Of a stretch of DNA of 64,000 nt, positions 8,002 through 43,540 are shown piece by piece. Both the position numbers and the translations under genes were made by a program. The DNA is taken from assembly GCF_013122565.1 (NCBI RefSeq), contig NZ_CP053258.1. The stretch is one strand, 5' to 3'. The stretch is from Escherichia coli. GTDB lineage: Bacteria > Pseudomonadota > Gammaproteobacteria > Enterobacterales > Enterobacteriaceae. Position 1 is the first letter of the stretch, and each line of letters starts with the position of its first letter. Under the pieces are notes generated by a model. That model searched no databases. It was not told the DNA's origin and was given only the letters and a program-made list of their open reading frames with translations.

Positions 8002-8210
8002 GACGGATAAGGTGTTTATGCCGCATCTGGCATTCAGTGCAAATGCCAGATGCGACGCTGACGCGTCTTATCTGGCCTACTTTAATGTAATCTGTTGAAA
8101 TAATGGGAATCGTAGGACGGATAAGGCGTTTACGCCGCATCCGGCAATCGGTGCAAATGCCAGATAAGACACTAACTAGTCTTATCTGGCCTACATCTGG
8201 CCTACAGATG
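7988..8210. repeat. REP/BIME element: two ~100-bp direct copies each containing REP palindromes (gtaggacggataagg...gccgcatccggca, cagataagac...gtcttatctg)
   Basis: direct repeat 7990-8090 vs 8103-8200 read in sequence; convergent rcsC/rcsB 3' ends. Confidence 0.85.
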
Positions 8211-8211
8211 A

Positions 8212-8862
8212 TTAGTCTTTATCTGCCGGACTTAAGGTCACAGAAGAGAGATAATTCAGCAGGGCGATATCGTTCTCGACACCCAGCTTCATCATCGCAG
8301 ATTTCTTCTGGCTACTGATGGTTTTAATACTGCGGTTCAGCTTTTTAGCGATCTCGGTCACCAGGAAGCCTTCCGCAAACAGGCGCAGAACTTCACTCTC
8401 TTTTGGCGAGAGACGCTTGTCACCGTAACCACCAGCACTGATTTTTTCCAACAGGCGAGAAACGCTTTCCGGGGTAAATTTCTTCCCTTTCTGCAGCGCG
8501 GCGAGAGCTTTCGGCAGATCGGTCGGTGCACCTTGTTTCAGCACGATCCCTTCAATATCCAGATCCAATACCGCACTAAGAATCGCCGGGTTGTTGTTCA
8601 TAGTCAGAACAATGATCGACAGGCTTGGGAAATGGCGCTTGATGTACTTGATTAAGGTAATACCATCGCCGTACTTATCGCCAGGCATGGAGAGATCGGT
8701 AATCAACACATGCGCATCCAGTTTCGGCAGGTTGTTGATCAGTGCTGTAGAGTCTTCAAATTCGCCGACAACATTCACCCACTCAATTTGCTCAAGTGAT
8801 TTGCGAATACCGAACAAGACTATCGGATGGTCATCGGCAATAATTACGTTCATATTGTTCAT
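8212..8862 (-). CDS. rcsB: response regulator RcsB (216 aa)
   Basis: ORF contains MNNMNVIIADDHPIVLFGIR; LuxR-type HTH C-terminus; start trimmed from 231-aa track ORF to the MNNMNV methionine. Confidence 0.95.
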   Translation of the reverse strand: MNNMNVIIADDHPIVLFGIRKSLEQIEWVNVVGEFEDSTALINNLPKLDAHVLITDLSMPGDKYGDGITLIKYIKRHFPSLSIIVLTMNNNPAILSAVLDLDIEGIVLKQGAPTDLPKALAALQKGKKFTPESVSRLLEKISAGGYGDKRLSPKESEVLRLFAEGFLVTEIAKKLNRSIKTISSQKKSAMMKLGVENDIALLNYLSSVTLSPADKD

Positions 8863-8878
8863 GTAATAGGCTACCTTG

Positions 8879-11551
8879 CTACAGCAAGCTCTTGACATAA
8901 CTGTCAATGTCGCTGATGTATTTTTCTATTCCTGGAACATCCTTCTCACGAATCAGATGTTCCAGCGTTTCACATAACTGCTTGCCGGGTACCAGATTTA
9001 GCATGGCAAATACGCCTTTAAGACGATGAGCCGTTTGGGCTAACGCAGCAAAGTCACTGGTTGCTGCTTCAGTATACAGCCTCTTAACATCATCCGGTAC
9101 TGTGTCTACAAAGAGCGCATAATAGCCGCTGGCATGGAGTTGCGCATTTTCATCTCCGCCCAGAGGCGATTCTGTCACCTCTTCCTGCGCCAGTTGCACT
9201 TCAATTAATTGTAAGACCGCTTCCTGCATAGCGTTGCTCATATTGAAGTTGACGCACAATTGACCAGGCCCAATTTCCCGTACGCCAGACTCATCATCGC
9301 TTAAAAGCAAGCCAGAGGCAGTAAGATTAGACGGATTATCCGTTAAAAAGATATCATAATCTTGACTAATTAATCTTTCATCGGGTGTGATACAGGTTGC
9401 ACCCCAATTTTCTAACTGGCGAGTGACAATATTCCGAATTTCTGCCGAAGTAACATCCACCATTACGCAGACATCATCCAGTAAACGCTCTTCTTCCTCT
9501 TCAACTTCCGGGTCAGCTGCGAGCATTTTGATATGCACAGAGTAGCGTGTACCAAGCCCATCCCGCGTTTTGATGTTTAAATGACCGCCCAGTTTACGCG
9601 CCAGTTGATCGCTCAGCCAGAATGCCAGCGGGTCCGCCTTGCCATAGCGATCGTTTTGGGTCTGGTTGATAAACGGGAAGTGCAAATTATCCATTTCATG
9701 AATACTTACGCCTTCTCCCGTGTCCAGAATGCGGAACGTCAGGCGGTCTTCGGAGGACTCATCCTGATCAACCTCAAGGGTGATTTTTCCCAATTGCGTT
9801 GAGGTCACGGCATATTGCATCAGTAGCAGCAAAATACGTCGTAAGGCATCGCGATCGCCGCGGCGCATATCGTGTGCTTTCAGATGATTGTTAATCAGCA
9901 GTTGCAGACCTTTACGCTTGATGGCAGGCAACACTGAAGGCACAACTTCATCAATTAAATCCTGCACGGAGAACAGCACCGTCTCACTTTTCCAGCTATC
10001 GTCCGCAAGCATGTTCGCTAACTGTATTTCATCGACCAGCCGCACCAGCACATCTGCCTGATTCGCCAGTTGTTTGCTTTCCGGGGCGTTGAGTTTAGCC
10101 GCGCTCTCCGCCAGGGACTGTGCGGGTTCTTTCAGCGCATCGCCAATGTTTTTCATAAAGGTCATCCGCCCCTGCTGGTTTTTCTCATACAGACGCTGCG
10201 CCTGCTTGAGTTTCTTGTTTACCAGCACTTCGCGATCCTGATCGCGAATAATGAAAATTTGTGTGCGCGGCGCAACCTGGCTGCGGAACATGCGGATCTC
10301 ATACAGCTCGTTATTGATCGTCGCCTGAATAATCCCCTGATGCTGTTCCGCCATGGTGGTGATGTTTTGCAGATTCAAATGCGGCAGCAAATGATCGGCA
10401 ATTTTGTTACTTATGACAGTGCGGTTCGATTCCTGATCGTGAACCAGCAGGCCGAGCGGCAGCAGTGAGACTATCTCTTCATTAATTGCCCGTAAAATGC
10501 GCAATTCGTTATTGACCGCCGTGTTGGGTAGACTTTCTGTACTGCGACTGGAGAAATGGCGGAATGTGGTATAGCCAAATAACGCCAGCGCCAGCAAACC
10601 GATGTTCAGCAGCAGTGGCAGCAGAATGTTTTGCAACGTATCCAGCAATAAGGTGCCATAAGGAACCTGCCAGACCAGGCGCATATCGGTAGAGTTGAGT
10701 GCCGAGGAGATTTCAATCTTCGTACTGTTAAAGTGGATACTGACGCTATCCGTCCCTTCTTTCTCATTATCATTGTTTCCCGTTGCCGTCGCGTCTGGCT
10801 CAAGGCGGAAACTGTCCAGCGGCATACCCGGTGGGATCAAATCATTAATCGGCAGATCAAAAGCCACGACCGTTGCCAGATGTCCCGGCTGGTTGAACGT
10901 GGTACGCAAGGTAAAGTAATGACCGTTCTGCCAGGCCAGGCGGCGCATGTTAGAAAAACTTTCGCGTTCATCGAGGGCGTTGGCCTGTTGCAACATCTCT
11001 GCACGACGTGAATCAACAATGTCACTGACGGTCGATTCTTTAAATCCGGAGGTGAGATCTTTGAGGGGCAGGGTTGAGATCAGCACCAGACTGTTATCCT
11101 GACCATTCAGGTAATACATCGACCACGGTACATTTTCTGCGCCCCACAATGTATCCAGATAAGTGGACATCCGCTGAGTCATCTCAAGCGTTGAGTTGTC
11201 GTGAGAGCCAAAGATTAACGCTTCCGTTTTGCGACGCGGTTTTTCCAGATAGTAGACATCCTGTTTCAGGCGCGTCTCTTGTAAACCTTCGCCGGAGGAG
11301 GGGGAGGTCGTCGCGGCAATGTTGTCGTAGATCTGCCAGGTCACGTAACGCCAGGTATCGACGCGCTTTTGGATTGCGTGGGTAATGTCGACAATCTGGT
11401 AACTTTTATCTTTCAGCCAGGCGTTAACGGCGCTTTGTACCATTACACCCATCGTCACCAGTAACACAATGATCAACAGTAAAAAGAAGCGGGTAATGCT
11501 CCCCGGTAGGAGTGAAAAGCGGGTCGTGGCCGTTGTCTCTTTCTGACGCAT
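8879..11551 (-). CDS. rcsD: phosphotransfer intermediate RcsD (YojN), 890 aa
   Basis: 890-aa ORF immediately upstream of rcsB, N-terminal membrane segment, HPt-like C-terminus. Confidence 0.93.
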   Translation of the reverse strand: MRQKETTATTRFSLLPGSITRFFLLLIIVLLVTMGVMVQSAVNAWLKDKSYQIVDITHAIQKRVDTWRYVTWQIYDNIAATTSPSSGEGLQETRLKQDVYYLEKPRRKTEALIFGSHDNSTLEMTQRMSTYLDTLWGAENVPWSMYYLNGQDNSLVLISTLPLKDLTSGFKESTVSDIVDSRRAEMLQQANALDERESFSNMRRLAWQNGHYFTLRTTFNQPGHLATVVAFDLPINDLIPPGMPLDSFRLEPDATATGNNDNEKEGTDSVSIHFNSTKIEISSALNSTDMRLVWQVPYGTLLLDTLQNILLPLLLNIGLLALALFGYTTFRHFSSRSTESLPNTAVNNELRILRAINEEIVSLLPLGLLVHDQESNRTVISNKIADHLLPHLNLQNITTMAEQHQGIIQATINNELYEIRMFRSQVAPRTQIFIIRDQDREVLVNKKLKQAQRLYEKNQQGRMTFMKNIGDALKEPAQSLAESAAKLNAPESKQLANQADVLVRLVDEIQLANMLADDSWKSETVLFSVQDLIDEVVPSVLPAIKRKGLQLLINNHLKAHDMRRGDRDALRRILLLLMQYAVTSTQLGKITLEVDQDESSEDRLTFRILDTGEGVSIHEMDNLHFPFINQTQNDRYGKADPLAFWLSDQLARKLGGHLNIKTRDGLGTRYSVHIKMLAADPEVEEEEERLLDDVCVMVDVTSAEIRNIVTRQLENWGATCITPDERLISQDYDIFLTDNPSNLTASGLLLSDDESGVREIGPGQLCVNFNMSNAMQEAVLQLIEVQLAQEEVTESPLGGDENAQLHASGYYALFVDTVPDDVKRLYTEAATSDFAALAQTAHRLKGVFAMLNLVPGKQLCETLEHLIREKDVPGIEKYISDIDSYVKSLL

Positions 11552-26441: not shown

Positions 26442-27044
26442 ATGGGAAATTCTGACCGTAAGCCTGGTCTGATTAAGCGCCTGTGGAAATGGTGGCGTAC
26501 CCCCAGCCGTCTGGCGCTGGGGACGCTGCTGTTGATCGGCTTTGTTGGCGGCATCGTCTTCTGGGGCGGCTTTAACACCGGGATGGAAAAAGCCAATACC
26601 GAAGAGTTCTGCATTAGCTGCCACGAAATGCGTAACACGGTGTATCAGGAATACATGGATTCCGTGCACTACAACAACCGTAGCGGCGTTCGTGCGACCT
26701 GTCCGGATTGTCACGTTCCGCACGAGTTTGTGCCGAAAATGATACGCAAGCTCAAAGCAAGTAAAGAGCTGTATGGTAAAATTTTTGGCGTTATTGACAC
26801 GCCGCAGAAATTCGAAGCTCATCGCCTGACTATGGCACAGAATGAGTGGCGGCGAATGAAGGACAACAACTCGCAGGAGTGCCGTAACTGTCACAACTTC
26901 GAGTTTATGGATTTAACCGCCCAGAAAGGTGTTGCCGCGAAGATGCATGACCAGGCGGTGAAAGATGGGCAAACCTGTATTGATTGCCATAAAGGGATAG
27001 CGCACAAGCTGCCCGATATGCGTGAAGTCGAGCCAGGTTTTTAA
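26442..27044 (+). CDS. napC: membrane-anchored tetraheme cytochrome c quinol dehydrogenase NapC, 200 aa
   Basis: N-terminal TM helix, four CxxCH (CISCH, CPDCH, CRNCH, CIDCH). Confidence 0.96.
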   Translation: MGNSDRKPGLIKRLWKWWRTPSRLALGTLLLIGFVGGIVFWGGFNTGMEKANTEEFCISCHEMRNTVYQEYMDSVHYNNRSGVRATCPDCHVPHEFVPKMIRKLKASKELYGKIFGVIDTPQKFEAHRLTMAQNEWRRMKDNNSQECRNCHNFEFMDLTAQKGVAAKMHDQAVKDGQTCIDCHKGIAHKLPDMREVEPGF

Positions 27045-34344: not shown

Positions 34345-36936
34345 ATGCATCAATCTGGTTCTGTTTCTCTTTGTCGTTCCGCAATATCTGTTCTGGTGGC
34401 TACAGCGTTATATTCACCCATAGCATTGGCATCAACAGTTGAGTATGGTGAGACAGTTGATGGTGTTGTCCTGGAAAAAGATATCCAGCTGGTTTATGGG
34501 ACCGCCAATAATACGAAAATCAATCCTGGCGGAGAACAGCATATTAAAGAATTTGGTATAAGTAGTAATACTGAAATTAACGGCGGGTATCAGTACATTG
34601 AAATGAATGGCACCGCAGAATACTCCGTATTAAATGATGGTTATCAAATTGTTCAAATGGGTGGCGCGGCAAACCAGACTACCCTCAATAATGGTGTGCT
34701 ACAGGTTTATGGCGCAGCGAATGATCCCACGATTAAAGGCGGGCGCTTAATCGTTGAAAAAGATGGGATTACCGTCCTTGCCGCTATCGAAAAGGGAGGA
34801 TTACTGGAGGTTAAAGAGGGGGGGTTAGCGATTGCGGTAGATCAGAAAGCCGGCGGTGCTATTAAAACAACCACGCGGGCCATGGAGGTATTCGGAACAA
34901 ACCGTCTCGGTCAGTTCGATATCAAGAATGGTATTGCTAACAATATGCTGTTGGAAAACGGCGGAAGTTTGCGAGTTGAAGAAAATGACTTCGCTTATAA
35001 TACTACTGTAGATAGTGGCGGCTTACTGGAGGTTATGGATGGCGGGACTGCAACTGGCGTTGATAAAAAAGCAGGCGGAAAATTAATTGTCTCAACGAAT
35101 GCGCTGGAAGTGAGTGGTACAAACAGTAAAGGCCAATTTAGTATAAAAGATGGTGTGTCAAAAAATTATGAACTGGACGATGGTTCCGGGCTCATTGTTA
35201 TGGAGGACACGCAGGCCATTGATACTATCCTTGATGAGCATGCCACTATGCAATCGCTGGGAAAGGATACTGGTACGAGAGTGCAGGCAAATGCGGTATA
35301 TGATCTGGGTCGATCAGATCAGAATGGAAGTATCACGTATTCCTCTAAAGCCATCTCTGAAAATATGGTTATCAACAATGGCCGCGCTAATGTCTGGGCA
35401 GGCACAATGGTTAACGTTTCAGTCAGAGGGAATGATGGCATTCTTGAGGTCATGAAGCCGCAAATAAATTATGCACCCGCTATGTTGGTGGGTAGTGTCG
35501 TGGTTTCTGAGGGCGCTTCTTTAAGAACGCATGGTGCCGTGGATACCAGCAAAGCGGATGTTTCGCTCGAAAATAGCTCATGGACCATCATTGCCGATAT
35601 CACTACGACGAACCAAAACACCCGCCTCAATTTAGCCAACCTTGCGATGTCTGGCGCAAATGTGATTATGATGGATGAGCCAGTGACTCGTTCATCTGTG
35701 ACGGCAAGTGCGGAAAATTTCACTACGTTGACCACCAATACCCTGTCGGGAAACGGCAATTTTTATATGCGTACCGATATGGCTAATCATCAGAGCGATC
35801 AGCTCAACGTCACCGGACAGGCAACAGGTGATTTCAAAATATTCGTGACGGACACCGGTGCCAGCCCGGCAGCAGGAGATAGCCTTACACTGGTAACAAC
35901 GGGCGGCGGTGATGCTGCATTTACGTTGGGCAATGCCGGAGGCGTTGTTGATATCGGTACGTATGAATATACCTTGCTGGATAATGGCAATCATAGCTGG
36001 AGTCTGGCAGAGAATCGCGCGCAAATTACCCCTTCAACCACTGATGTGCTAAATATGGCGGCAGCACAACCGCTGGTATTTGATGCAGAACTGGACACCG
36101 TGCGTGAGCGTCTTGGTAGCGTAAAAGGCGTTAGTTACGATACGGCGATGTGGAGTTCGGCAATTAACACCCGCAACAACGTGACCACTGATGCGGGCGC
36201 TGGTTTTGAGCAAACATTGACGGGCCTGACGCTCGGTATCGATAGCCGTTTCTCCCGTGAAGAAAGCAGTACAATTCGCGGCTTGTTCTTTGGTTACTCT
36301 CATTCTGATATTGGTTTTGATCGCGGCGGCAAAGGCAATGTCGATAGCTATACCCTGGGTGCTTATGCCGGTTGGGAGCATCAGAACGGTGCCTATGTTG
36401 ATGGGGTGGTGAAAGTTGACCGTTTTGCCAACACCATCCATGGCAAGATGAGTAATGGGGCAACAGCGTTTGGCGATTACAATAGTAACGGCGCGGGTGC
36501 TCATGTTGAGAGCGGGTTCCGTTGGGTTGACGGATTGTGGAGTGTTAGACCCTATCTGGCCTTTACCGGCTTTACCACAGATGGTCAGGACTACACGTTA
36601 TCAAACGGCATGCGCGCGGACGTGGGAAATACCCGGATATTACGCGCTGAAGCGGGAACGGCGGTAAGCTATCACATGGACCTGCAAAACGGTACGACGC
36701 TGGAACCCTGGCTGAAAGCCGCCGTGCGTCAGGAATACGCCGATTCTAACCAGGTGAAAGTTAATGACGATGGCAAATTTAATAATGATGTGGCTGGAAC
36801 CAGTGGCGTTTATCAGGCTGGGATAAGGTCATCGTTTACCCCGACGTTAAGCGGTCATTTGTCAGTCAGCTATGGCAATGGCGCAGGGGTAGAATCACCG
36901 TGGAATACTCAGGCGGGTGTGGTCTGGTCGTTCTGA
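34345..36936 (+). CDS. yejO: autotransporter adhesin-like protein YejO, intact 863 aa
   Basis: N-terminal signal peptide, repetitive passenger, C-terminal beta-barrel ending VVWSF; adjacent to tRNA-Pro as yejO is. Confidence 0.85.
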   Translation: MHQSGSVSLCRSAISVLVATALYSPIALASTVEYGETVDGVVLEKDIQLVYGTANNTKINPGGEQHIKEFGISSNTEINGGYQYIEMNGTAEYSVLNDGYQIVQMGGAANQTTLNNGVLQVYGAANDPTIKGGRLIVEKDGITVLAAIEKGGLLEVKEGGLAIAVDQKAGGAIKTTTRAMEVFGTNRLGQFDIKNGIANNMLLENGGSLRVEENDFAYNTTVDSGGLLEVMDGGTATGVDKKAGGKLIVSTNALEVSGTNSKGQFSIKDGVSKNYELDDGSGLIVMEDTQAIDTILDEHATMQSLGKDTGTRVQANAVYDLGRSDQNGSITYSSKAISENMVINNGRANVWAGTMVNVSVRGNDGILEVMKPQINYAPAMLVGSVVVSEGASLRTHGAVDTSKADVSLENSSWTIIADITTTNQNTRLNLANLAMSGANVIMMDEPVTRSSVTASAENFTTLTTNTLSGNGNFYMRTDMANHQSDQLNVTGQATGDFKIFVTDTGASPAAGDSLTLVTTGGGDAAFTLGNAGGVVDIGTYEYTLLDNGNHSWSLAENRAQITPSTTDVLNMAAAQPLVFDAELDTVRERLGSVKGVSYDTAMWSSAINTRNNVTTDAGAGFEQTLTGLTLGIDSRFSREESSTIRGLFFGYSHSDIGFDRGGKGNVDSYTLGAYAGWEHQNGAYVDGVVKVDRFANTIHGKMSNGATAFGDYNSNGAGAHVESGFRWVDGLWSVRPYLAFTGFTTDGQDYTLSNGMRADVGNTRILRAEAGTAVSYHMDLQNGTTLEPWLKAAVRQEYADSNQVKVNDDGKFNNDVAGTSGVYQAGIRSSFTPTLSGHLSVSYGNGAGVESPWNTQAGVVWSF

Positions 36937-39377: not shown

Positions 39378-40385
39378 ATGAGTCTGGATATCAACCAGAT
39401 TGCTCTGCACCAGCTTATCAAGCGTGATGAGCAGAACCTTGAGCTGGTGTTGCGCGATTCATTGCTGGAACCGACAGAAACCGTCGTTGAGATGGTGGCA
39501 GAACTGCATCGGGTCTATAGCGCCAAAAATAAAGCTTACGGCTTGTTTAGCGAAGAGAGTGAACTGGCGCAGACGCTGCGCTTACAGCGTCAGGGCGAAG
39601 AGGACTTTCTGGCATTTAGCCGCGCGGCAACCGGTCGCCTGCGTGACGAATTAGCGAAATATCCTTTTGCTGACGGTGGATTCGTGCTGTTTTGCCACTA
39701 CCGTTATCTGGCGGTGGAGTATCTGCTGGTGGCAGTCCTGAGCAACCTGAGCAGTATGCGCGTTAACGAAAATCTCGACATCAACCCAACCCATTATCTT
39801 GATATCAATCATGCGGATATTGTTGCGCGTATCGATTTAACCGAATGGGAAACCAATCCAGAGTCGACCCGCTATCTCACTTTCCTGAAAGGGCGAGTAG
39901 GGCGCAAAGTGGCGGATTTCTTTATGGATTTCCTCGGGGCCAGCGAAGGGTTAAACGCGAAAGCGCAAAACCGTGGGCTGTTGCAAGCGGTTGATGATTT
40001 CACTGCCGAAGCACAACTGGATAAAGCAGAGCGACAGAACGTGCGCCAGCAGGTTTATAGCTACTGTAATGAGCAGCTGCAGGCAGGCGAAGAGATTGAA
40101 CTGGAGTCGCTGTCGAAAGAGCTGGCAGGCGTCAGCGAAGTGAGCTTCACGGAGTTTGCGGCTGAAAAAGGCTACGAACTGGAAGAGAGCTTCCCGGCAG
40201 ACCGTAGCACACTGCGTCAGTTGACGAAGTTTGCCGGTAGCGGCGGTGGCTTGACTATTAACTTTGATGCGATGCTGTTAGGTGAACGCATCTTCTGGGA
40301 TCCGGCGACCGATACCCTGACCATTAAAGGCACGCCGCCGAATTTGCGCGACCAATTGCAGCGCCGGACGTCTGGTGGGAACTAA
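39378..40385 (+). CDS. yejK: nucleoid-associated protein YejK (NdpA), 335 aa
   Basis: 335-aa [22 protein letters not shown]. Confidence 0.94.
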
Positions 40386-40765
40386 ATCTCCAACGCGAAT
40401 GTTTCTTTTCGGAGAAACAGTTGCGGGATAATCACAATTCTTGTCAATCAGTTAGTGAGATGACTTGCTGATTGACCTTTCATTCGAAAATGTTTTCTCT
40501 GTTATTATACTTAGTGTTACTGAAAATATTATTCTCTTATCCCCTTTATTCGATAATAAATCGGTCTGGTCACTATTTCCGCCGTTTTTTGTGAGCTGTA
40601 ACACTGGAAAAATCATTCTGTTTAATTATATTGAGTTTACTTGGCGTTATATGTTGTTATTTGCTTTGACTATATAAAATGCAAATGTATTCTTAATGTC
40701 AATATTATTGTCGTTATGTTTGACTCATTATATTAATCGTATGAATAGTTTTAAGGATTCACCGC

Positions 40766-41338
40766 ATGGAGCAAGAAAATCCTGAAGATAGAAAGTGTTG
40801 TCGACCGAAAAAAACGTTCTCTTTAACCAGAAAATTACTGGTATGTTTTATCTTTACCCTCATTGTATTCAGTGGTTGTTTATTTGTCGTTATGAACACG
40901 GTCATTCATAACACCAGCACTGACAGCTTTTGCCTGGGTTGTCATGAAATGAAAGACAACATCCTTACCGAGAGTTTCAAAAAATCCATTCATGGCAGTA
41001 ATCGTACTGGCGTGAAAGTCGCTTGTGCCGATTGCCATATTCCTGATGAATTTGTCCCTAAGATGATCAGAAAAGCCCACGCCGTTAAAGAGGTTTGGGG
41101 GCATATGACAGGCGTAATTGATACGGCCGATAAATTCGATGCACATCGTGGCGAAATGGCAAAAGCGGAATGGGCAAGAATGAAAGCAAACAATTCGCAG
41201 GAATGCAGAGACTGCCACGATATTTCTAAATTACAGAAAAAATTTATGGCGCCGTTCCATGAGGCTTCTCTTAAAGAAGGGAAAACATGCATTGATTGTC
41301 ATGCCGGCATTGCACATAAATTACCAGCAGTTCATTAG
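40766..41338 (+). CDS. NapC/NirT/CymA-family membrane-anchored tetraheme cytochrome c (putative quinol dehydrogenase), 190 aa; NapC paralog
   Basis: N-terminal TM helix (LLVCFIFTLIVFSGCLFVV), four CxxCH (CLGCH, CADCH, CRDCH, CIDCH); shares blocks VPKMIRK, NNSQECR-CH, TCIDCH-GIAHKLP with the napC in this window. Confidence 0.85.
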   Translation: MEQENPEDRKCCRPKKTFSLTRKLLVCFIFTLIVFSGCLFVVMNTVIHNTSTDSFCLGCHEMKDNILTESFKKSIHGSNRTGVKVACADCHIPDEFVPKMIRKAHAVKEVWGHMTGVIDTADKFDAHRGEMAKAEWARMKANNSQECRDCHDISKLQKKFMAPFHEASLKEGKTCIDCHAGIAHKLPAVH

Positions 41339-41431
41339 TCATTAATACATGAATGTCATGTCTGTCTGGTTTCAAATAAAAACAAGAAGGGTTTCATGTT
41401 GATTTAAGTTTTTATGTAAAAGGACCATGTT

Positions 41432-43072
41432 ATGAGGAAACTAAAAAGGGGATTCTTATTGGCTGGGGTATTAACGGCACTTTCTCTAAGCGCTTATGCT
41501 GACAGAAATATGAATAAGATCCCGCATATCAATCTGTCGAATCCATCCGTCGAACCAGTTAGTGAGAGAATAATCCAAACAGATATTGTTGTTATTGGCG
41601 GTGGGCTTTCTGGCATGTCCGCAGGGTTGACTGCAGTACAGGGCGGAGCCAAAGTTGTTATTTTTGAAAAACTACCAAGCCTTGGAGGGGCAGGCGTTTA
41701 TCCTGAAGGCAGTTTAGGCATTGGCACCCTTATGCAAAAAAAAGAGGGGAAAGGTGCCACGCTGAATCAAGCCTTTGGTAAGGCGATCGATTTCCATCAC
41801 TGGCGAGCCAATGCTAGTGCATTGCACGCATTAATGAAAAACTCAGGCGAAACCATTGATTGGGTTGCCAGTAATGGCGTTGAGTTTACGACCTTAAAAA
41901 CCACCATTTATCCTCAGTCAGATTCATTATGGACCTGGCATATGTATAAGCATAATGGTGCATCTGTTACTAAAAGCTTTTACAAGAAGATCCTTGATGG
42001 AGGTGGGCAAATCTACACCGAAACTCCTGTTAAGAAGATTCTTCGCGACAAACAAAGCGGTGATGTCGTTGGCGTCGAAGCGGTTAATAGCGTAACAGGG
42101 GAAAAAATCATTGCCTATGGTAAGGGTGTGATTGTGGCGACCGGTGGTTTTGCCAACAACCGTGACATGATTGAAAAATACATCACCGATGTGAATCAGA
42201 AAAACATGGTGCCGGTCAAACTACGTGGCCCCCTGATTGATGGACGCGAAGGCGATGGTATCAAAATGGGGCAAGACATTGGCGCTGATACTGCCGGGAT
42301 GCAAACCATTGCTGGCAATAGCCCATATGTCGATCAAGACCCTCCTATCCGTCAGTTTAATGGCGCGGATTACCAAAAACAGGCCAGAACGTCATTAAGC
42401 CAGCCATTCCTGTGGATTAACCGACAAGGCGAGCGTTTCTTTGATGAGTCACTCGGTTCCAGTTTTACCCTCGTTTATAACGCTATCACCATGAATGGCG
42501 GAGTCATGTATTCTGTCTGGGATGATGCAATGCGCCAGAAGATGGTTAACGAAGGGCCGGTTACACCGTTTAACGCCATCGTGTTGCCTGGGCAGCCGAT
42601 GAAGGCGCTGGATCAGGCGATCGAAATCGGCATGAAAGAAGGGTGGTTATTTAAAGGTGAAACGTTGGACGATCTGGCAAAACAGATCAATGTTCCTGCA
42701 GACAATCTGAAAGCGACGATTGCGAAAGTAAACAAGTATACGGATGAAGGTTTCGATCCTGACTGGGGGCGCAAGAAAGAGCATCTGTTTAAATTTCAGG
42801 ATAAAGGACCGTATTACGCCGTGAAAGGTATTCGGGCTTATTTCCTGACGCTGGGTGGTTTGAAAATGAACAGCGATCTGCAGGTCTACGATACCAATGA
42901 GAAGATTATCCCAGGTCTGTATGTTGTCGGGCAGGATATGGGCGGTCTGTATGACAGCTCCTATGATTTGGTACTTGAAGGATCGGCTTCTGGCTTTGCG
43001 TTGACGTCGGGACGTATGGCAGCGAAACATATTATAAGCACCAGAGTGCAGGCACAGGGAGGAGGCAAATGA
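41432..43072 (+). CDS. exported FAD-dependent flavoprotein of the fumarate-reductase/succinate-dehydrogenase flavoprotein (FAD_binding_2) type, 546 aa; substrate unknown
   Basis: N-terminal signal peptide MRKLKRGFLLAGVLTALSLSAYA; dinucleotide fold DIVVIGGGLSGMSAGLTA...EKLPSLGGAG; C-terminal GLYVVGQDMGG; no CxxCH. Confidence 0.8.
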   Translation: MRKLKRGFLLAGVLTALSLSAYADRNMNKIPHINLSNPSVEPVSERIIQTDIVVIGGGLSGMSAGLTAVQGGAKVVIFEKLPSLGGAGVYPEGSLGIGTLMQKKEGKGATLNQAFGKAIDFHHWRANASALHALMKNSGETIDWVASNGVEFTTLKTTIYPQSDSLWTWHMYKHNGASVTKSFYKKILDGGGQIYTETPVKKILRDKQSGDVVGVEAVNSVTGEKIIAYGKGVIVATGGFANNRDMIEKYITDVNQKNMVPVKLRGPLIDGREGDGIKMGQDIGADTAGMQTIAGNSPYVDQDPPIRQFNGADYQKQARTSLSQPFLWINRQGERFFDESLGSSFTLVYNAITMNGGVMYSVWDDAMRQKMVNEGPVTPFNAIVLPGQPMKALDQAIEIGMKEGWLFKGETLDDLAKQINVPADNLKATIAKVNKYTDEGFDPDWGRKKEHLFKFQDKGPYYAVKGIRAYFLTLGGLKMNSDLQVYDTNEKIIPGLYVVGQDMGGLYDSSYDLVLEGSASGFALTSGRMAAKHIISTRVQAQGGGK

Positions 43073-43479
43073 GTAAGCTATTGAAGAACATTGTCACAAT
43101 CATTCTTGCTGGCGTAATGTGCACCGTTATCGGTATGGTTTCTGCCAGTGCACAAGAGATTGTCGGCATGAAAATGCACAAGACCATTGGTCTGGAATGT
43201 AATAACTGCCATGTTGATGATGTTAAAGCCAACAAGAATATGACGCCAACGTGCGTTAGCTGCCATGCGCCTGGTGAGCGTTATTATCATGGTAAGAAGG
43301 ATTCAGAAGGTAACTCAGTGTTAAAAGAGTATCCGGAGTCGGGTAAAACACGAGTTGCGTCTTTCCATGACTCTCATGGCGGGGAAATTCGCTGTACGGT
43401 ATGCCATACGTCACATGAGAAGGAACCACAGCCACTCTATTGCAACAACTGCCATCAGTTTGATGTGAAGATTAAGTAG
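43069..43479 (+). CDS. small periplasmic tetraheme cytochrome c, 136 aa
   Basis: signal peptide, four CxxCH (CNNCH, CVSCH, CTVCH, CNNCH) in ~110 mature residues; ATGA overlap with upstream flavoprotein gene. Confidence 0.85.
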   Translation: MSKLLKNIVTIILAGVMCTVIGMVSASAQEIVGMKMHKTIGLECNNCHVDDVKANKNMTPTCVSCHAPGERYYHGKKDSEGNSVLKEYPESGKTRVASFHDSHGGEIRCTVCHTSHEKEPQPLYCNNCHQFDVKIK

Positions 43480-43501
43480 TGAAGGTATTTGTCAGTCGCT
43501 G

Positions 43502-43540
43502 AAAAAGAAAACGGCCCGTAAAGGCCGTTTTCTTTTGTTC
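43502..43540. terminator. intrinsic terminator (aaacggcccgtaaaggccgttt + T-run) between the island operon and convergent rplY
   Basis: GC hairpin flanked by gaaaaagaaa and ttcttttg. Confidence 0.85.

What the first reader, a model, noticed from the sequence alone, without database searches (positions are those of the whole stretch)
42832..42970. Flavoprotein lacks the fumarate-binding His/Arg of FrdA/Fcc3: likely a non-fumarate substrate
In fumarate reductase and succinate dehydrogenase flavoproteins the substrate-binding His sits in a conserved H-x-T-M-G-G block (FrdA HYTMGG, Fcc3 HHTMGG as I recall), and a substrate Arg sits in H-G-A-N-R-L-G. The corresponding blocks here read A-Y-F-L-T-L-G-G and G-L-Y-D-S-S-Y-D-L, so His is replaced by Phe and Arg by Tyr. 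The fold motifs are kept (GxGxxG at the N-terminus, GLYVVGQDMGG). This suggests a reductase of the same scaffold that acts on something other than a C4-dicarboxylate. The alignment is by eye from remembered motifs.
Basis: inference. Interest (0 to 1): 0.6.

Follow-up and report, generated by a model that had tools for sequence, protein, structure and literature searches.

The report
Orphan periplasmic flavin reductase operon
A rare three-gene insert in this E. coli chromosome encodes a membrane-to-periplasm electron chain that ends in a fumarate-reductase-like flavoprotein with none of the residues that bind fumarate, so it most likely lets the cell respire on some other, still unknown, unsaturated compound.

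Summary
In the 546-aa ORF 41432..43072, AYFLTLGG (aa 469-476) and GLYDSSYDL (aa 505-513) align with Fcc3/UrdA HHTMGG and HGANR. That puts Phe471 at His504 and Tyr511 at the carboxylate Arg. The catalytic Arg402 is Ser343, and His365 is Asn296 or Asp303, depending on the alignment. All of these residues are invariant or nearly so in 120 homologues.

The gene sits in a 3.1-kb, low-GC insert between yejK and rplY. The insert encodes a NapC/NirT-type tetrahaem quinol dehydrogenase, the flavoprotein, and a translationally coupled tetrahaem c3-type subunit, which together make a split flavocytochrome c.

No match to the insert was found in 5,426 complete RefSeq E. coli genomes. It occupies the same site in E. 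albertii, a cryptic Escherichia clade and a Citrobacter, and it is under strong purifying selection (dN/dS about 0.016).

The flavoprotein belongs to an uncharacterised clade that is abundant in Sutterellaceae, Deferribacterales, Geobacterales and Desulfobacterota. Its nearest curated family is vinylphenol reductase VprA (28% identity, below the family cut-off), which shares the Phe and the Tyr. KstD has its carbonyl-binding Tyr487 at the same position.

The most likely function is a respiratory C=C reductase for a non-fumarate substrate. This makes it an orphan member of a known kind. The substrate is unknown.

The parts
40386..43532 (+). 3,147-bp insert between yejK and rplY that carries the three-gene operon. 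It replaces about 116 bp of intergenic DNA found in ordinary E. coli.
   Evidence: BLASTN against E. coli FDAARGOS_943 shows homology ending at 40385 and resuming at 43533. GC is 31-48% in the insert against about 52% in the flanks. Megablast found no match in 5,426 complete E. coli genomes. The insert is at the same site in Escherichia sp. MOD1-EC7003, E. albertii and Citrobacter sp. Cu233.
40590..40605 (+). CRP-like site TGTGAGCTGTAACACT in the 380-bp AT-rich leader. It is a candidate regulatory site.
   Evidence: It has two mismatches to TGTGA-N6-TCACA. It lies in a block (TTTTTGTGAnCTGTAACACT) conserved in all three Escherichia lineages, with one variable base, within an otherwise diverged region. 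It is next to a promoter-like site at 40605-40632. Function was not tested.
40766..41338 (+). NapC/NirT-type membrane-anchored tetrahaem cytochrome c (190 aa). It is the predicted quinol dehydrogenase that feeds the chain.
   Evidence: There are four CxxCH motifs at aa 56, 87, 147 and 175. TIGR02161 napC_nirT scores 206.7 bits, below the 310.6 cut-off. Pfam Cytochrom_NNT hits the product. It is 47% identical to the host NapC at 26442-27044. A hydrophobic N-terminal segment, LLVCFIFTLIVFSGCLFVVMNTVI, is visible in the sequence. NCBI names it 'NapC/NirT family cytochrome c', WP_171460607.1.
41432..43072 (+). FAD subunit (546 aa), a periplasmic flavoprotein of the FrdA/UrdA/KstD superfamily with a non-canonical active site.
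   Evidence: PF00890 FAD_binding_2 scores E 1.4e-43. The best NCBIfam hit is NF053717 VprA at 311.7 bits (cut-off 600); TIGR01813 flavo_cyto_c scores 172.8 bits (cut-off 285.45). The best PDB sequence hit is UrdA 6t85, E 8e-36. The AF2 model has pLDDT 86.4, and Foldseek gives UrdA 6t86 with TMt 0.85. dN/dS is 0.016-0.017 against other Escherichia lineages.
41432..41500 (+). Signal peptide MRKLKRGFLLAGVLTALSLSAYA (aa 1-23), with cleavage expected after AYA. It is most likely Sec-type.
   Evidence: This is read directly from the sequence. There is no twin arginine, only KR at aa 5-6. The closest homologues have comparable short signal peptides, while the S. wadsworthensis homologue has a clear Tat signal.
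42317..42460 (+). Clamp-domain active-site segment. Asn296 or Asp303 stands in place of Fcc3 His365. Arg319 is the equivalent of Fcc3 Arg381. Ser343 stands in place of the catalytic Arg402.
   Evidence: Fcc3 residues 340-429 and their numbering were verified from PDB chains. The alignments are pairwise HMMER and family profile. Conservation in the family: Asn296 120/120, Arg319 119/120, Ser343 invariant among the 33 sequences of A1. A canonical Sutterella flavocytochrome has Arg at columns 343/344.
42836..42859 (+). AYFLTLGG block. Phe471 and Leu472 stand in place of His504 and His505 of the HHTMGG motif.
   Evidence: Searches give the alignment. Phe471 is present in 119 of 120 homologues. VprA also has Phe here, in AFCTMGG.
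42944..42970 (+). GLYDSSYDL block. Tyr511 (nt 42962-42964) stands in place of the carboxylate-binding Arg of HGANR, at the position of KstD1 Tyr487.
   Evidence: Searches give the alignment and spacing. Tyr511 is present in 120 of 120 homologues, and Asp508, Asp512 and Glu516 are invariant. VprA has Tyr at this position.
43069..43479 (+). Small periplasmic tetrahaem cytochrome c (136 aa). It is the c3-type electron-input subunit of a split flavocytochrome c.
   Evidence: There are four CxxCH motifs at aa 44, 62, 109 and 125. Its start overlaps the flavoprotein stop by 4 nt (ATGA), which suggests translational coupling. The best PDB matches are the N-terminal haem domains of Ifc3 1qo8 (E 1e-6) and Fcc3. 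Pfam Cytochrom_c3_2 hits the product. A homologous partner lies directly downstream in 22 related loci.
43508..43531 (.). Hairpin AAAACGGCC-CGTAAA-GGCCGTTTT followed by a T-rich tail. It is the likely terminator shared by the operon and the convergent rplY.
   Evidence: This is read from the sequence. Only weak, sub-threshold Rfam hits fall on this hairpin.

Best explanation
The finding lies in the catalytic subunit of a self-contained, three-gene anaerobic respiratory module.

Proposed electron path:
1. The membrane-anchored NapC/NirT-type tetrahaem protein takes electrons from the quinol pool.
2. It passes them to the small tetrahaem c3-type subunit.
3. That subunit reduces the non-covalently bound FAD of the periplasmic flavoprotein.
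4. The flavoprotein reduces a carbon-carbon double bond in an external substrate, by hydride transfer from flavin N5 plus a proton from an active-site acid.

The flavoprotein keeps the FrdA/Fcc3/UrdA fold. It has replaced every residue that makes those enzymes fumarate or 2-enoate reductases: His365 becomes Asn296 or Asp303, Arg402 becomes Ser343, His504 becomes Phe471, and the carboxylate Arg becomes Tyr511.

Its C-terminal active-site motif is of the VprA/KstD type. A Tyr sits at the position that binds the 3-keto oxygen in KstD. I therefore infer that the substrate's activating group is held by hydrogen bonds, as for a phenol, carbonyl or lactone, rather than by an Arg salt bridge. The most likely substrate is a neutral or phenolic conjugated alkene.

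What is shown: the gene architecture, cofactor motifs, residue replacements, their conservation, purifying selection and taxonomic distribution.

What is inferred: the direction of electron flow, periplasmic assembly, the identity of the proton donor (candidates Arg319, Tyr511, Tyr507) and the substrate class.

The actual substrate is unknown.
For: Architecture:
- Three co-oriented genes each have a ribosome-binding site. The flavoprotein and cytochrome genes overlap by ATGA.
- There are 4 + 4 CxxCH motifs.
- The first gene is NapC-like, with a hydrophobic N-terminal anchor and 47% identity to the host NapC.
- The small cytochrome matches the haem domain of Fcc3/Ifc3. It has five extra His residues (read from the translation), enough for bis-His ligation of all four haems.
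- The Ccm haem-attachment system is encoded 7-13 kb upstream in the same window.

Fold: PF00890; AF2 pLDDT 86 with UrdA, Fcc3 and KstD as the top structural matches.

Active site: replacements are shown by pairwise and profile alignments against PDB-verified Fcc3 sequence. A canonical flavocytochrome serves as a positive control. The residues are invariant in the family.

Affinities:
- The VprA model is the best NCBIfam hit for every family member tested, at 301-364 bits.
- A bona fide VprA (784 bits) shares the Phe and the Tyr.
- KstD Tyr487 sits at identical spacing from the GLYxxG motif.

The gene is functional: dN/dS is 0.016-0.017 and all key residues are kept across Escherichia and Citrobacter.

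Precedents:
- Split periplasmic flavocytochromes ArdAB (10.1101/2024.02.11.579808), Mrd/Mcc and W. succinogenes FccAB (PMC4427408).
- A NapC-like cytochrome paired with a secreted FAD reductase acting on a lactone, Cgr1/Cgr2 (PMC5953540).
- Triad-less clades with a conserved Tyr (10.1101/2022.12.26.521950).
Against: - There are no experimental data for any member of this clade.
- The pocket was not inspected in three dimensions. Residue roles rest on sequence alignments at about 22-28% identity, with indels next to two of the four positions.
- Loss of the catalytic Arg402 leaves the proton donor undefined.
- Two invariant arginines, Arg319 and Arg468, lie close in sequence to active-site segments and could bind a carboxylate.
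- Little et al. show that Tyr-type clades can still reduce cinnamates.
- The island has no regulator or transporter gene to point to a substrate.
- The signal peptide looks Sec-type. FAD would then have to be acquired in the periplasm, which in Shewanella needs a dedicated FAD exporter (my own knowledge, not tested here).
- Some E. albertii database entries are fragments, so the gene is dispensable in some strains.
Confidence: 0.6

Rival explanations
1. The protein is still a 2-enoate reductase, for example of the cinnamate or hydroxycinnamate type. It would bind the carboxylate in a non-canonical way through Tyr511/Tyr507 and perhaps Arg319 or Arg468, as in the Tyr-type cinnamate reductase clades of gut Firmicutes and Actinobacteria.
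For: Little et al. (10.1101/2022.12.26.521950) show that clades lacking both arginines, with a conserved Tyr at the carboxylate-Arg position, reduce cinnamates. In those enzymes the Tyr is essential (CirA Y634A, CirC Y511A). Arg319 (119/120) and Arg468 (120/120) are conserved here. Eggerthellaceae relatives share Tyr at column 511.
Against: The clade's nearest curated relative acts on a non-carboxylate substrate (VprA). Arg319 aligns with the proton-relay Arg381 of Fcc3, not with a substrate ligand. Identity to the Eggerthellaceae relatives found here is under about 32%; the characterised cinnamate reductases themselves could not be compared.
Confidence: 0.27
2. The module runs in the oxidative direction. 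The flavoprotein would be a KstD-like desaturase or dehydrogenase that oxidises a periplasmic substrate and sends electrons through the cytochromes to the quinone pool.
For: The Tyr at the KstD Tyr487 position and the structural similarity to KstD and cyclohexanone dehydrogenase fit this reading. From my own knowledge, NapC/NirT-family proteins can work as quinone reductases in some systems, such as Nitrosomonas cM552.
Against: The partner is a c3-type tetrahaem homologous to the electron-input domain of the reductases Fcc3/Ifc3. All characterised split flavocytochromes c are reductases (ArdAB, Mrd/Mcc; papers cited above). The other KstD catalytic tyrosines were not identified. NCBIfam KstD models score far below cut-off (125 against 789 bits).
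Confidence: 0.08
3. It is an ordinary periplasmic fumarate reductase (Fcc3-like), and the apparent substitutions are alignment artefacts.
For: The fold and the cytochrome partner are those of Fcc3. JGI pipelines label homologues 'fumarate reductase flavoprotein subunit'.
Against: Two independent alignment methods agree. The motif spacing around GLYxxG is ungapped. A canonical flavocytochrome aligned to the same profile shows His/His/Arg/Arg. TIGR01813 scores below its cut-off. The invariant His and Arg residues found elsewhere in the family (His170, His451, Arg125, Arg265, Arg272, Arg335) do not align with the canonical sites.
Confidence: 0.02
4. It is a decaying remnant with no current function.
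For: It is absent from nearly all E. coli. Fragmentary versions exist in some E. albertii records.
Against: All three ORFs are intact here and in three other lineages, and dN/dS is about 0.016 with dS of 0.55-0.80. The active-site residues are invariant across phyla.
Confidence: 0.03

Closest known systems
Vinylphenol reductase VprA (Lactiplantibacillus plantarum lp_3125; NCBIfam NF053717)
   Same: It has the same fold. It is the best-scoring curated family for this protein and for its homologues, at 301-364 bits. It shares Phe at the His504 position and Tyr at the carboxylate-Arg position. It acts on a C=C bond not conjugated to a carboxylate (PMC10295242).
   Different: Identity is only 28%, and the score is about half the 600-bit cut-off. 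VprA has no signal peptide in the sequence used here and no adjacent cytochrome gene; its neighbour is a LysR regulator. It lacks Arg319 (a gap in the alignment) and has Asp at Ser343 and Gly at Asp508 and Asp512. This protein is exported and fed by cytochromes.
Soluble periplasmic fumarate reductase flavocytochrome c3 (Shewanella Fcc3/Ifc3) and urocanate reductase UrdA
   Same: They are the best solved-structure matches. They share periplasmic location and non-covalent FAD (Ala87 stands where FrdA has the FAD-linking His). The tetrahaem c3-type input module is homologous to the small cytochrome here. The Arg381 equivalent is kept (Arg319).
   Different: The haem domain is a separate polypeptide here. 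His365, Arg402, His504 and the carboxylate Arg are all replaced. TIGR01813 scores below its cut-off.
Split periplasmic flavocytochromes: W. succinogenes FccABC, S. woodyi acrylate reductase ArdAB, G. sulfurreducens AM-1 methacrylate reductase Mrd/Mcc
   Same: The subunit architecture is the same: a flavoprotein of about 50 kDa plus a small multihaem cytochrome. FccC of W. succinogenes as a NapC/NirT-type partner is my recollection; the paper read here lists only FccA and the haem subunit. All have a periplasmic respiratory role (PMC4427408; 10.1101/2024.02.11.579808).
   Different: Mrd keeps His461, Arg501 and Arg353, the canonical enoate site (PMC4427408). ArdAB is strictly specific for acrylate and methacrylate. 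This protein lacks the triad. The gene order here is napC-like, flavoprotein, cytochrome. Export here looks Sec-type rather than the Tat type of Mrd and FccA.
Triad-less gut flavin reductase clades (Little et al.: CirA, CirC, CrdD) and Eggerthella Cgr1/Cgr2
   Same: They are extracytoplasmic PF00890 reductases that lack the two active-site arginines, with Tyr conserved at the carboxylate-Arg position. Cgr2 is paired with a NapC/NirT-like cytochrome and reduces an unsaturated lactone (10.1101/2022.12.26.521950; PMC5953540). About 40 of the homologous loci found are in Sutterellaceae, one of the 'high-reductase' lineages.
   Different: Identity to the Eggerthellaceae relatives found here is 26-32%. 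Cgr2 needs [4Fe-4S] clusters. None of the characterised enzymes was shown to belong to this clade, and no S. wadsworthensis paralogue of this clade has an assigned substrate in that paper.
3-Ketosteroid delta1-dehydrogenase (KstD1, PDB 4c3x) and related desaturases
   Same: The fold is the same (TM about 0.7). Tyr487, the residue I recall as polarising the 3-keto group, sits 11 residues after GLYxxG, exactly where Tyr511 sits here.
   Different: KstD works oxidatively and has no cytochrome partner. Identity is about 18%. Gly491 aligns with Leu515. The catalytic base Tyr318 and Tyr119 were not mapped. NCBIfam KstD models score far below their cut-offs.

Membership tests
Fumarate reductase / Fcc3-type flavocytochrome c (TIGR01813 flavo_cyto_c) | FAD_binding_2 fold with the N-terminal GxGxxG dinucleotide-binding motif | tested here: met
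   PF00890 scores E 1.4e-43. GGGLSG is at aa 56-61. Foldseek gives UrdA and Fcc3 as top hits.
Fumarate reductase / Fcc3-type flavocytochrome c (TIGR01813 flavo_cyto_c) | Substrate and catalytic residues His365, Arg402, His504 and Arg544/545 (FrdA His232, Arg287, His355, Arg390) | tested here: not met
   The equivalents are Asn296 or Asp303, Ser343, Phe471 and Tyr511. A canonical control sequence shows His and Arg in the same columns.
Fumarate reductase / Fcc3-type flavocytochrome c (TIGR01813 flavo_cyto_c) | Score at or above the curated family cut-off | tested here: not met
   The score is 172.8 bits against a cut-off of 285.45.
Fumarate reductase / Fcc3-type flavocytochrome c (TIGR01813 flavo_cyto_c) | Tetrahaem c3-type electron-input module | tested here: met
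   It is present as a separate 136-aa subunit with 4 CxxCH motifs, homologous to Fcc3/Ifc3 residues 13-91.
2-Enoate reductase flavocytochromes (UrdA, ArdA, Mrd) | [quoted passage not shown] | tested here: not met
   The equivalents are Tyr511, Ser343/Ser344 and Phe471.
Vinylphenol reductase VprA (NF053717, equivalog) | Score at or above the 600-bit equivalog cut-off | tested here: not met
   This protein scores 311.7 bits. A real VprA from an L. plantarum plasmid scores 783.8 bits.
Vinylphenol reductase VprA (NF053717, equivalog) | Phe at the His504 position and Tyr at the carboxylate-Arg position | tested here: met
   BLASTP aligns AFCTMGG with AYFLTLGG, and GDTYGP with DSSYDL.
Vinylphenol reductase VprA (NF053717, equivalog) | Vinylphenol-to-ethylphenol activity | not testable with these tools
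   This needs an enzyme assay.
3-Ketosteroid delta1-dehydrogenase (KstD) | Tyr487/Gly491 carbonyl-polarising pair in the C-terminal motif | tested here: inconclusive
   Tyr511 matches Tyr487 by ungapped spacing, but Gly491 corresponds to Leu515.
3-Ketosteroid delta1-dehydrogenase (KstD) | Catalytic base Tyr318 and Tyr119 | not tested
   No residue-level alignment of that region could be obtained. NCBIfam KstD models score 89-125 bits against cut-offs of about 790.
NapC/NirT quinol dehydrogenases (gene 40766..41338) | N-terminal membrane anchor plus four CxxCH motifs | tested here: met
   Searches show the anchor and the motifs. Pfam Cytochrom_NNT hits the product. It is 47% identical to the host NapC.
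NapC/NirT quinol dehydrogenases (gene 40766..41338) | Score at or above the TIGR02161 subfamily cut-off, or the NapC equivalog cut-off | tested here: not met
   It scores 206.7 against 310.6 bits, and 199.4 against 349 bits. It is a family member by architecture but not NapC itself.
Three-gene split flavocytochrome module (W. succinogenes FccABC type) | Co-transcribed NapC-type cytochrome, exported flavoprotein and small tetrahaem cytochrome | tested here: met
   Searches show the arrangement here. The same trio is present in Budvicia, Citrobacter and other Escherichia. Orthology to FccABC itself was not tested, because no sequence was available.

The most novel reading that the evidence does not exclude
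Escherichia albertii, the cryptic Escherichia clades and a rare E. coli lineage possess an unrecognised anaerobic respiration. It would use a periplasmic quinol-to-NapC-like-to-c3-to-flavoprotein chain whose flavoprotein represents a new catalytic solution, with no Arg/Arg/His triad. The acceptor would be a non-carboxylate gut or plant metabolite, for example vinylphenols, other conjugated phenolics, or enones/steroids. The same clade would account for part of the orphan reductase arsenal of Sutterellaceae and for cytoplasmic homologues in Desulfobacterota.
Probability: 0.35. Interest if true: 0.6.

Novelty: new member of a known kind. Interest (0 to 1): 0.42.

Why it matters
If the module is active, it adds a terminal electron acceptor to the respiratory repertoire of Escherichia. 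That acceptor would be absent from K-12 and from every complete RefSeq E. coli genome searched.

The module may also be a physiological marker separating E. albertii and the cryptic clades from typical E. coli.

The operon is small and self-contained, and it sits in a host that already has Ccm. It is therefore an unusually tractable way to assign a substrate to a large clade of flavin reductases. That clade is abundant in the gut genera Sutterella and Parasutterella and in environmental Deferribacterales, Geobacterales and Desulfobacterota, and none of its members has a known function.

It would also show how this fold protonates its substrate without the catalytic arginine.

Tried and rejected
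1. Methacrylate reductase Mrd. The homologues in Geobacterales and Deferribacterales suggested this family, but Mrd keeps His461, Arg501 and Arg353 (PMC4427408). Rejected.

2. Recent horizontal transfer from E. albertii. The nucleotide identity of the insert tracks that of the flanks in three lineages. Inheritance with loss in most E. coli fits better, despite the low GC.

3. Plasmid-borne relatives. tblastn against 72,556 plasmids found nothing above 30% identity. It did, however, supply a genuine VprA sequence.

4. A 95-aa fragment covering the clamp region found no PDB hit on its own. I solved this by querying with Fcc3 sequence recalled from memory, which the PDB confirmed at 89 of 90 positions.

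5. My first reading that Arg319 equals the catalytic Arg402 was wrong. Arg319 aligns with Arg381.

6. An FNR box was sought in the leader. None was found within two mismatches. NarL heptamers gave none either.

7. Rfam was searched over the island. Only sub-threshold noise appeared.

8. Neighbour-gene clustering over about 66 loci was tried to infer a substrate. It recovered only the cytochrome partner, a Crp/FNR-like regulator, LysR regulators, porins and further flavocytochromes. No lyase, decarboxylase or transporter pointed to a compound.

9. Pocket inspection or FAD docking was not possible. The structure tool returns no coordinates.
Full report
**1. What is at the coordinates**

The finding lies inside a 546-aa ORF, 41432..43072 on the + strand. 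AYFLTLGG is aa 469-476 (nt 42836-42859). GLYVVGQDMGG is aa 495-505. GLYDSSYDL is aa 505-513 (nt 42944-42970). The N-terminal GxGxxG is GGGLSG at aa 56-61.

**2. Are the reference motifs right, and is the alignment right?**

The PDB sequence of S. frigidimarina Fcc3 reads ...YYAIEVTPGVH504H505TMGGV...[27 protein letters not shown]. By chain count the Arg is 544; I recall Arg545 as the published number. E. coli FrdA, fetched from MG1655, has HYTMGG at 356 and HGANRLG with Arg391.

Pairwise phmmer and a profile HMM built from 120 homologues give the same correspondences:
- His504 aligns with Phe471.
- His505 aligns with Leu472.
- His540 aligns with Tyr507.
- The Arg aligns with Tyr511, followed by a three-residue insertion.

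The position of Tyr511 does not depend on that gap. It lies 11 residues after the GLYxxG motif. The Arg in Fcc3 has the same spacing, and so does Tyr487 in KstD1. I confirmed the KstD1 sequence IDGLYAAGNTSASLSGRFY487PGPG491 from PDB chain 4c3x.

**3.

I verified Fcc3 residues 340-429 against the PDB...YIQAH365PT...M375VT377E378AVR381G...NEITTR402DK. In the alignments, the catalytic acid Arg402 (FrdA Arg287 in LGPRDK) corresponds to Ser343 in an invariant NESxGSxF motif.

His365 corresponds to Asn296 in the pairwise alignment and to Asp303 in the profile alignment. Neither is His.

The only canonical residue retained is Arg319, which aligns with the proton-relay Arg381. My initial assumption that Arg319 was the catalytic Arg was wrong and has been corrected.

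As a positive control, a canonical flavocytochrome c from a Sutterella locus (TIGR01813, 511 bits) was aligned to the same profile. It shows Arg at 343/344 and His at 471/472.

[quoted passage not shown] This protein lacks all three.

**4. Is it more than chance?**

Among 120 homologues of 48-98% identity:
- Asn296, Arg468, Tyr511, Asp508, Asp512 and Glu516 are invariant.
- Phe471, Arg319 and Tyr507 are present in 119 of 120.

Ser343 is invariant among the 33 sequences of alignment A1.

Between the window and Escherichia sp. MOD1-EC7003 or E. albertii, the gene has dS of 0.55-0.80 but dN of 0.009-0.013, which gives dN/dS of about 0.016. Every key residue is identical, including in Citrobacter. 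This is a functional, constrained active site, not a decaying fumarate reductase.

**5. Genomic setting**

The window is E. coli. The yejM-yejL-yejK flank is 99.4% identical to E. coli genomes and matches 5,425 of 5,426 complete genomes. Upstream lie napA, napC, ccmA, ccmF and narP.

Between yejK and rplY, ordinary E. coli has about 116 bp. Here, 3,147 bp (40386-43532) replace it, with GC of 31-48% against about 52% in the flanks. Megablast of the insert finds nothing in 5,426 complete RefSeq E. coli genomes.

The exact proteins exist in NCBI with generic names:
- 'FAD-dependent oxidoreductase [Escherichia coli]', WP_250880417.1
- 'NapC/NirT family cytochrome c', WP_171460607.1
- 'cytochrome c3 family protein', QJU27714.1

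The same insert sits at the same site in Escherichia sp. MOD1-EC7003, the E. albertii type strain and Citrobacter sp. Cu233. Its nucleotide divergence tracks that of the flanks:

| Lineage | Flank identity | Insert identity |
|---|---|---|
| Escherichia sp. MOD1-EC7003 | 95-98% | 89-91% |
| E. albertii | 90-96% | 83-88% |
| Citrobacter sp. Cu233 | 81-91% | 77-79% |

This looks like an old locus lost from most E. coli rather than a recent import. Some E. albertii records hold only fragments of the gene.

**6. The three genes**

- **Gene 1 (40766..41338, 190 aa).** It has an N-terminal hydrophobic anchor and four CxxCH motifs. It matches NapC/NirT below the family cut-off and is 47% identical to the host NapC.
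- **Gene 2 (41432..43072).** This is the flavoprotein. It has a 23-residue signal peptide ending AYA and no twin arginine (KR only), so it is probably Sec-exported. FAD is expected to be non-covalent, because Ala87 stands where FrdA has the FAD-linking His.
- **Gene 3 (43069..43479, 136 aa).** It overlaps gene 2 by ATGA. It has a signal peptide, four CxxCH motifs and five further His residues. Its best PDB matches are the N-terminal tetrahaem domains of Ifc3 and Fcc3.

A hairpin at 43508-43531 closes the operon. Together the genes encode a split flavocytochrome c with its own quinol dehydrogenase. The small cytochrome partner follows the flavoprotein gene in 22 related loci. The NapC-like gene accompanies it only in the Enterobacterales loci.

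**7. The family**

The AF2 model is confident (pLDDT 86.4, pTM 0.85). Its best structural matches are UrdA (TMt 0.85), Fcc3, KstD, 3-ketosteroid delta4-(5alpha)-dehydrogenase and cyclohexanone dehydrogenase.

The best curated family is vinylphenol reductase VprA (NF053717) at 311.7 bits, well under the 600-bit cut-off. Four other family members score 301-364 bits.

I obtained a genuine VprA from an L. plantarum plasmid (783.8 bits, with an adjacent LysR regulator). It is 28% identical to this protein. It shares Phe at the His504 position and Tyr at the Arg position. It lacks Arg319 and the acidic residues Asp508 and Asp512. The protein is therefore a relative of VprA, not a VprA.

A scan of one genome per species found the clade in these groups:
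- Budvicia (84% identity)
- a Deferribacterales MAG (70%)
- Seleniivibrio, Geomonas, Telmatospirillum and Xanthobacteraceae
- about 40 loci in Sutterellaceae (Sutterella, Parasutterella, Turicimonas, Dakarella, Mesosutterella, Duodenibacillus), often with several paralogues per genome
- Syntrophus, Syntrophorhabdus and other Desulfobacterota MAGs

Separate look-ups added Oryzomonas and Brenneria. The Desulfobacterota proteins lack signal peptides. The active-site constellation is the same in the exported and the cytoplasmic versions. A small, membrane-permeant substrate would fit this pattern, but that is inference.

**8. Comparison with the literature**

- Little et al. (10.1101/2022.12.26.521950) showed that gut 'high-reductase' bacteria, including Sutterella, carry many orphan PF00890 reductases. 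Clades 2-4 lack both active-site arginines and conserve a Tyr at the carboxylate-Arg position. Some of these still reduce cinnamates, and one enzyme also reduces resveratrol.
- Cgr1/Cgr2 pairs a NapC/NirT-like cytochrome with a secreted FAD reductase acting on an unsaturated lactone (PMC5953540).
- ArdAB and Mrd/Mcc, together with W. succinogenes FccA and its haem subunit, are split periplasmic flavocytochromes. Mrd keeps the canonical His and Arg residues (10.1101/2024.02.11.579808; PMC4427408).

Both the architecture and the triad-less active site therefore have precedents. What has no precedent is any functional assignment for this particular clade, or any description of it in Escherichia. 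One full-text search on E. albertii plus flavocytochrome found nothing relevant.

**9. Mechanism proposed**

Quinol is oxidised by the NapC-like protein. Electrons pass through the tetrahaem subunit to FAD. FADH- delivers a hydride to a C=C bond, and an active-site acid supplies the proton.

Tyr511 occupies the position of the residue that, as I recall, polarises the 3-keto group in KstD. VprA, which also has Tyr there, acts on vinylphenols. I therefore favour a substrate whose activating group is a phenol, carbonyl or lactone oxygen rather than a salt-bridged carboxylate.

This step is inferred. The invariant Arg319 and Arg468, together with the cinnamate-reducing Tyr clades, keep a non-canonical enoate substrate as a serious rival. 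An oxidative, KstD-like role is less likely given the c3-type partner.

**10. Verdict**

The object is an orphan member of the known class of cytochrome-linked periplasmic flavin reductases. It is notable mainly for sitting in a genetically tractable Escherichia genome and for representing a large uncharacterised clade.

Noticed in passing
window 40586-40610: A conserved block, TTTTTGTGAnCTGTAACACT, stands out in the otherwise diverged 380-bp AT-rich leader of the operon across E. coli, a cryptic Escherichia clade and E. albertii. It resembles a CRP site with two mismatches. No FNR box was found.
   Followed up: partly
window 40443-40476: A near-perfect inverted repeat, GTCAATCAG...CTGATTGAC, lies just downstream of yejK. 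It is largely conserved in the other Escherichia lineages. It could be the yejK terminator or an operator.
   Followed up: no
related loci L005, L010, L015, L017, L052, L069 and 17 others: The commonest neighbour of this flavoprotein clade outside Enterobacterales is a protein of about 243 aa, found in 23 loci. It gives only weak cNMP-binding and Crp-type HTH Pfam matches and no NCBIfam hit. It is probably a dedicated Crp/FNR-family regulator. The Escherichia island lacks it.
   Followed up: partly
L003/L009 (Budvicia aquatica) and L004 (Brenneria corticis): In two Enterobacterales, the homologue lies next to a siderophore-interacting-protein gene (FAD_binding_9/SIP). In Brenneria it also lies next to an NRPS and a TonB-dependent receptor, and there is no cytochrome partner. 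This may be coincidence or a functional hint.
   Followed up: no
window 41501-41575 (aa 24-48 of the flavoprotein): The mature N-terminus carries a motif, DRNMNxxPxIN..., conserved in the closest exported homologues (P0001-P0015). The AF2 model is disordered there (pLDDT below 50 for aa 19-37). It may be a docking segment for the cytochrome partner.
   Followed up: no
protein cluster (E. albertii records): Several E. albertii database entries for this flavoprotein are short (312, 133 and 79 aa, 'FAD-binding protein'). This suggests frameshifts or pseudogenes in some strains, even though the gene is under strong purifying selection elsewhere.
   Followed up: no
window 34345-36936: An 863-aa autotransporter (beta-barrel domain, with BafA-family C-terminal similarity) lies between narP and yejM. 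This is a variable accessory gene at this locus.
   Followed up: partly
L011 (Citrobacter sp. Cu233) 8170-9909: In Citrobacter, an SmdA-family multidrug ABC transporter gene lies between the island and rplY. The island borders are therefore not identical across genera.
   Followed up: partly
L070 9187-10926 and seven other Sutterellaceae/Seleniivibrio loci: Canonical flavocytochrome c genes (TIGR01813, 511 bits for the L070 representative, with the His/Arg site intact) lie within a few kb of members of the triad-less clade. This illustrates the clustering of reductase paralogues in these genomes.
   Followed up: partly
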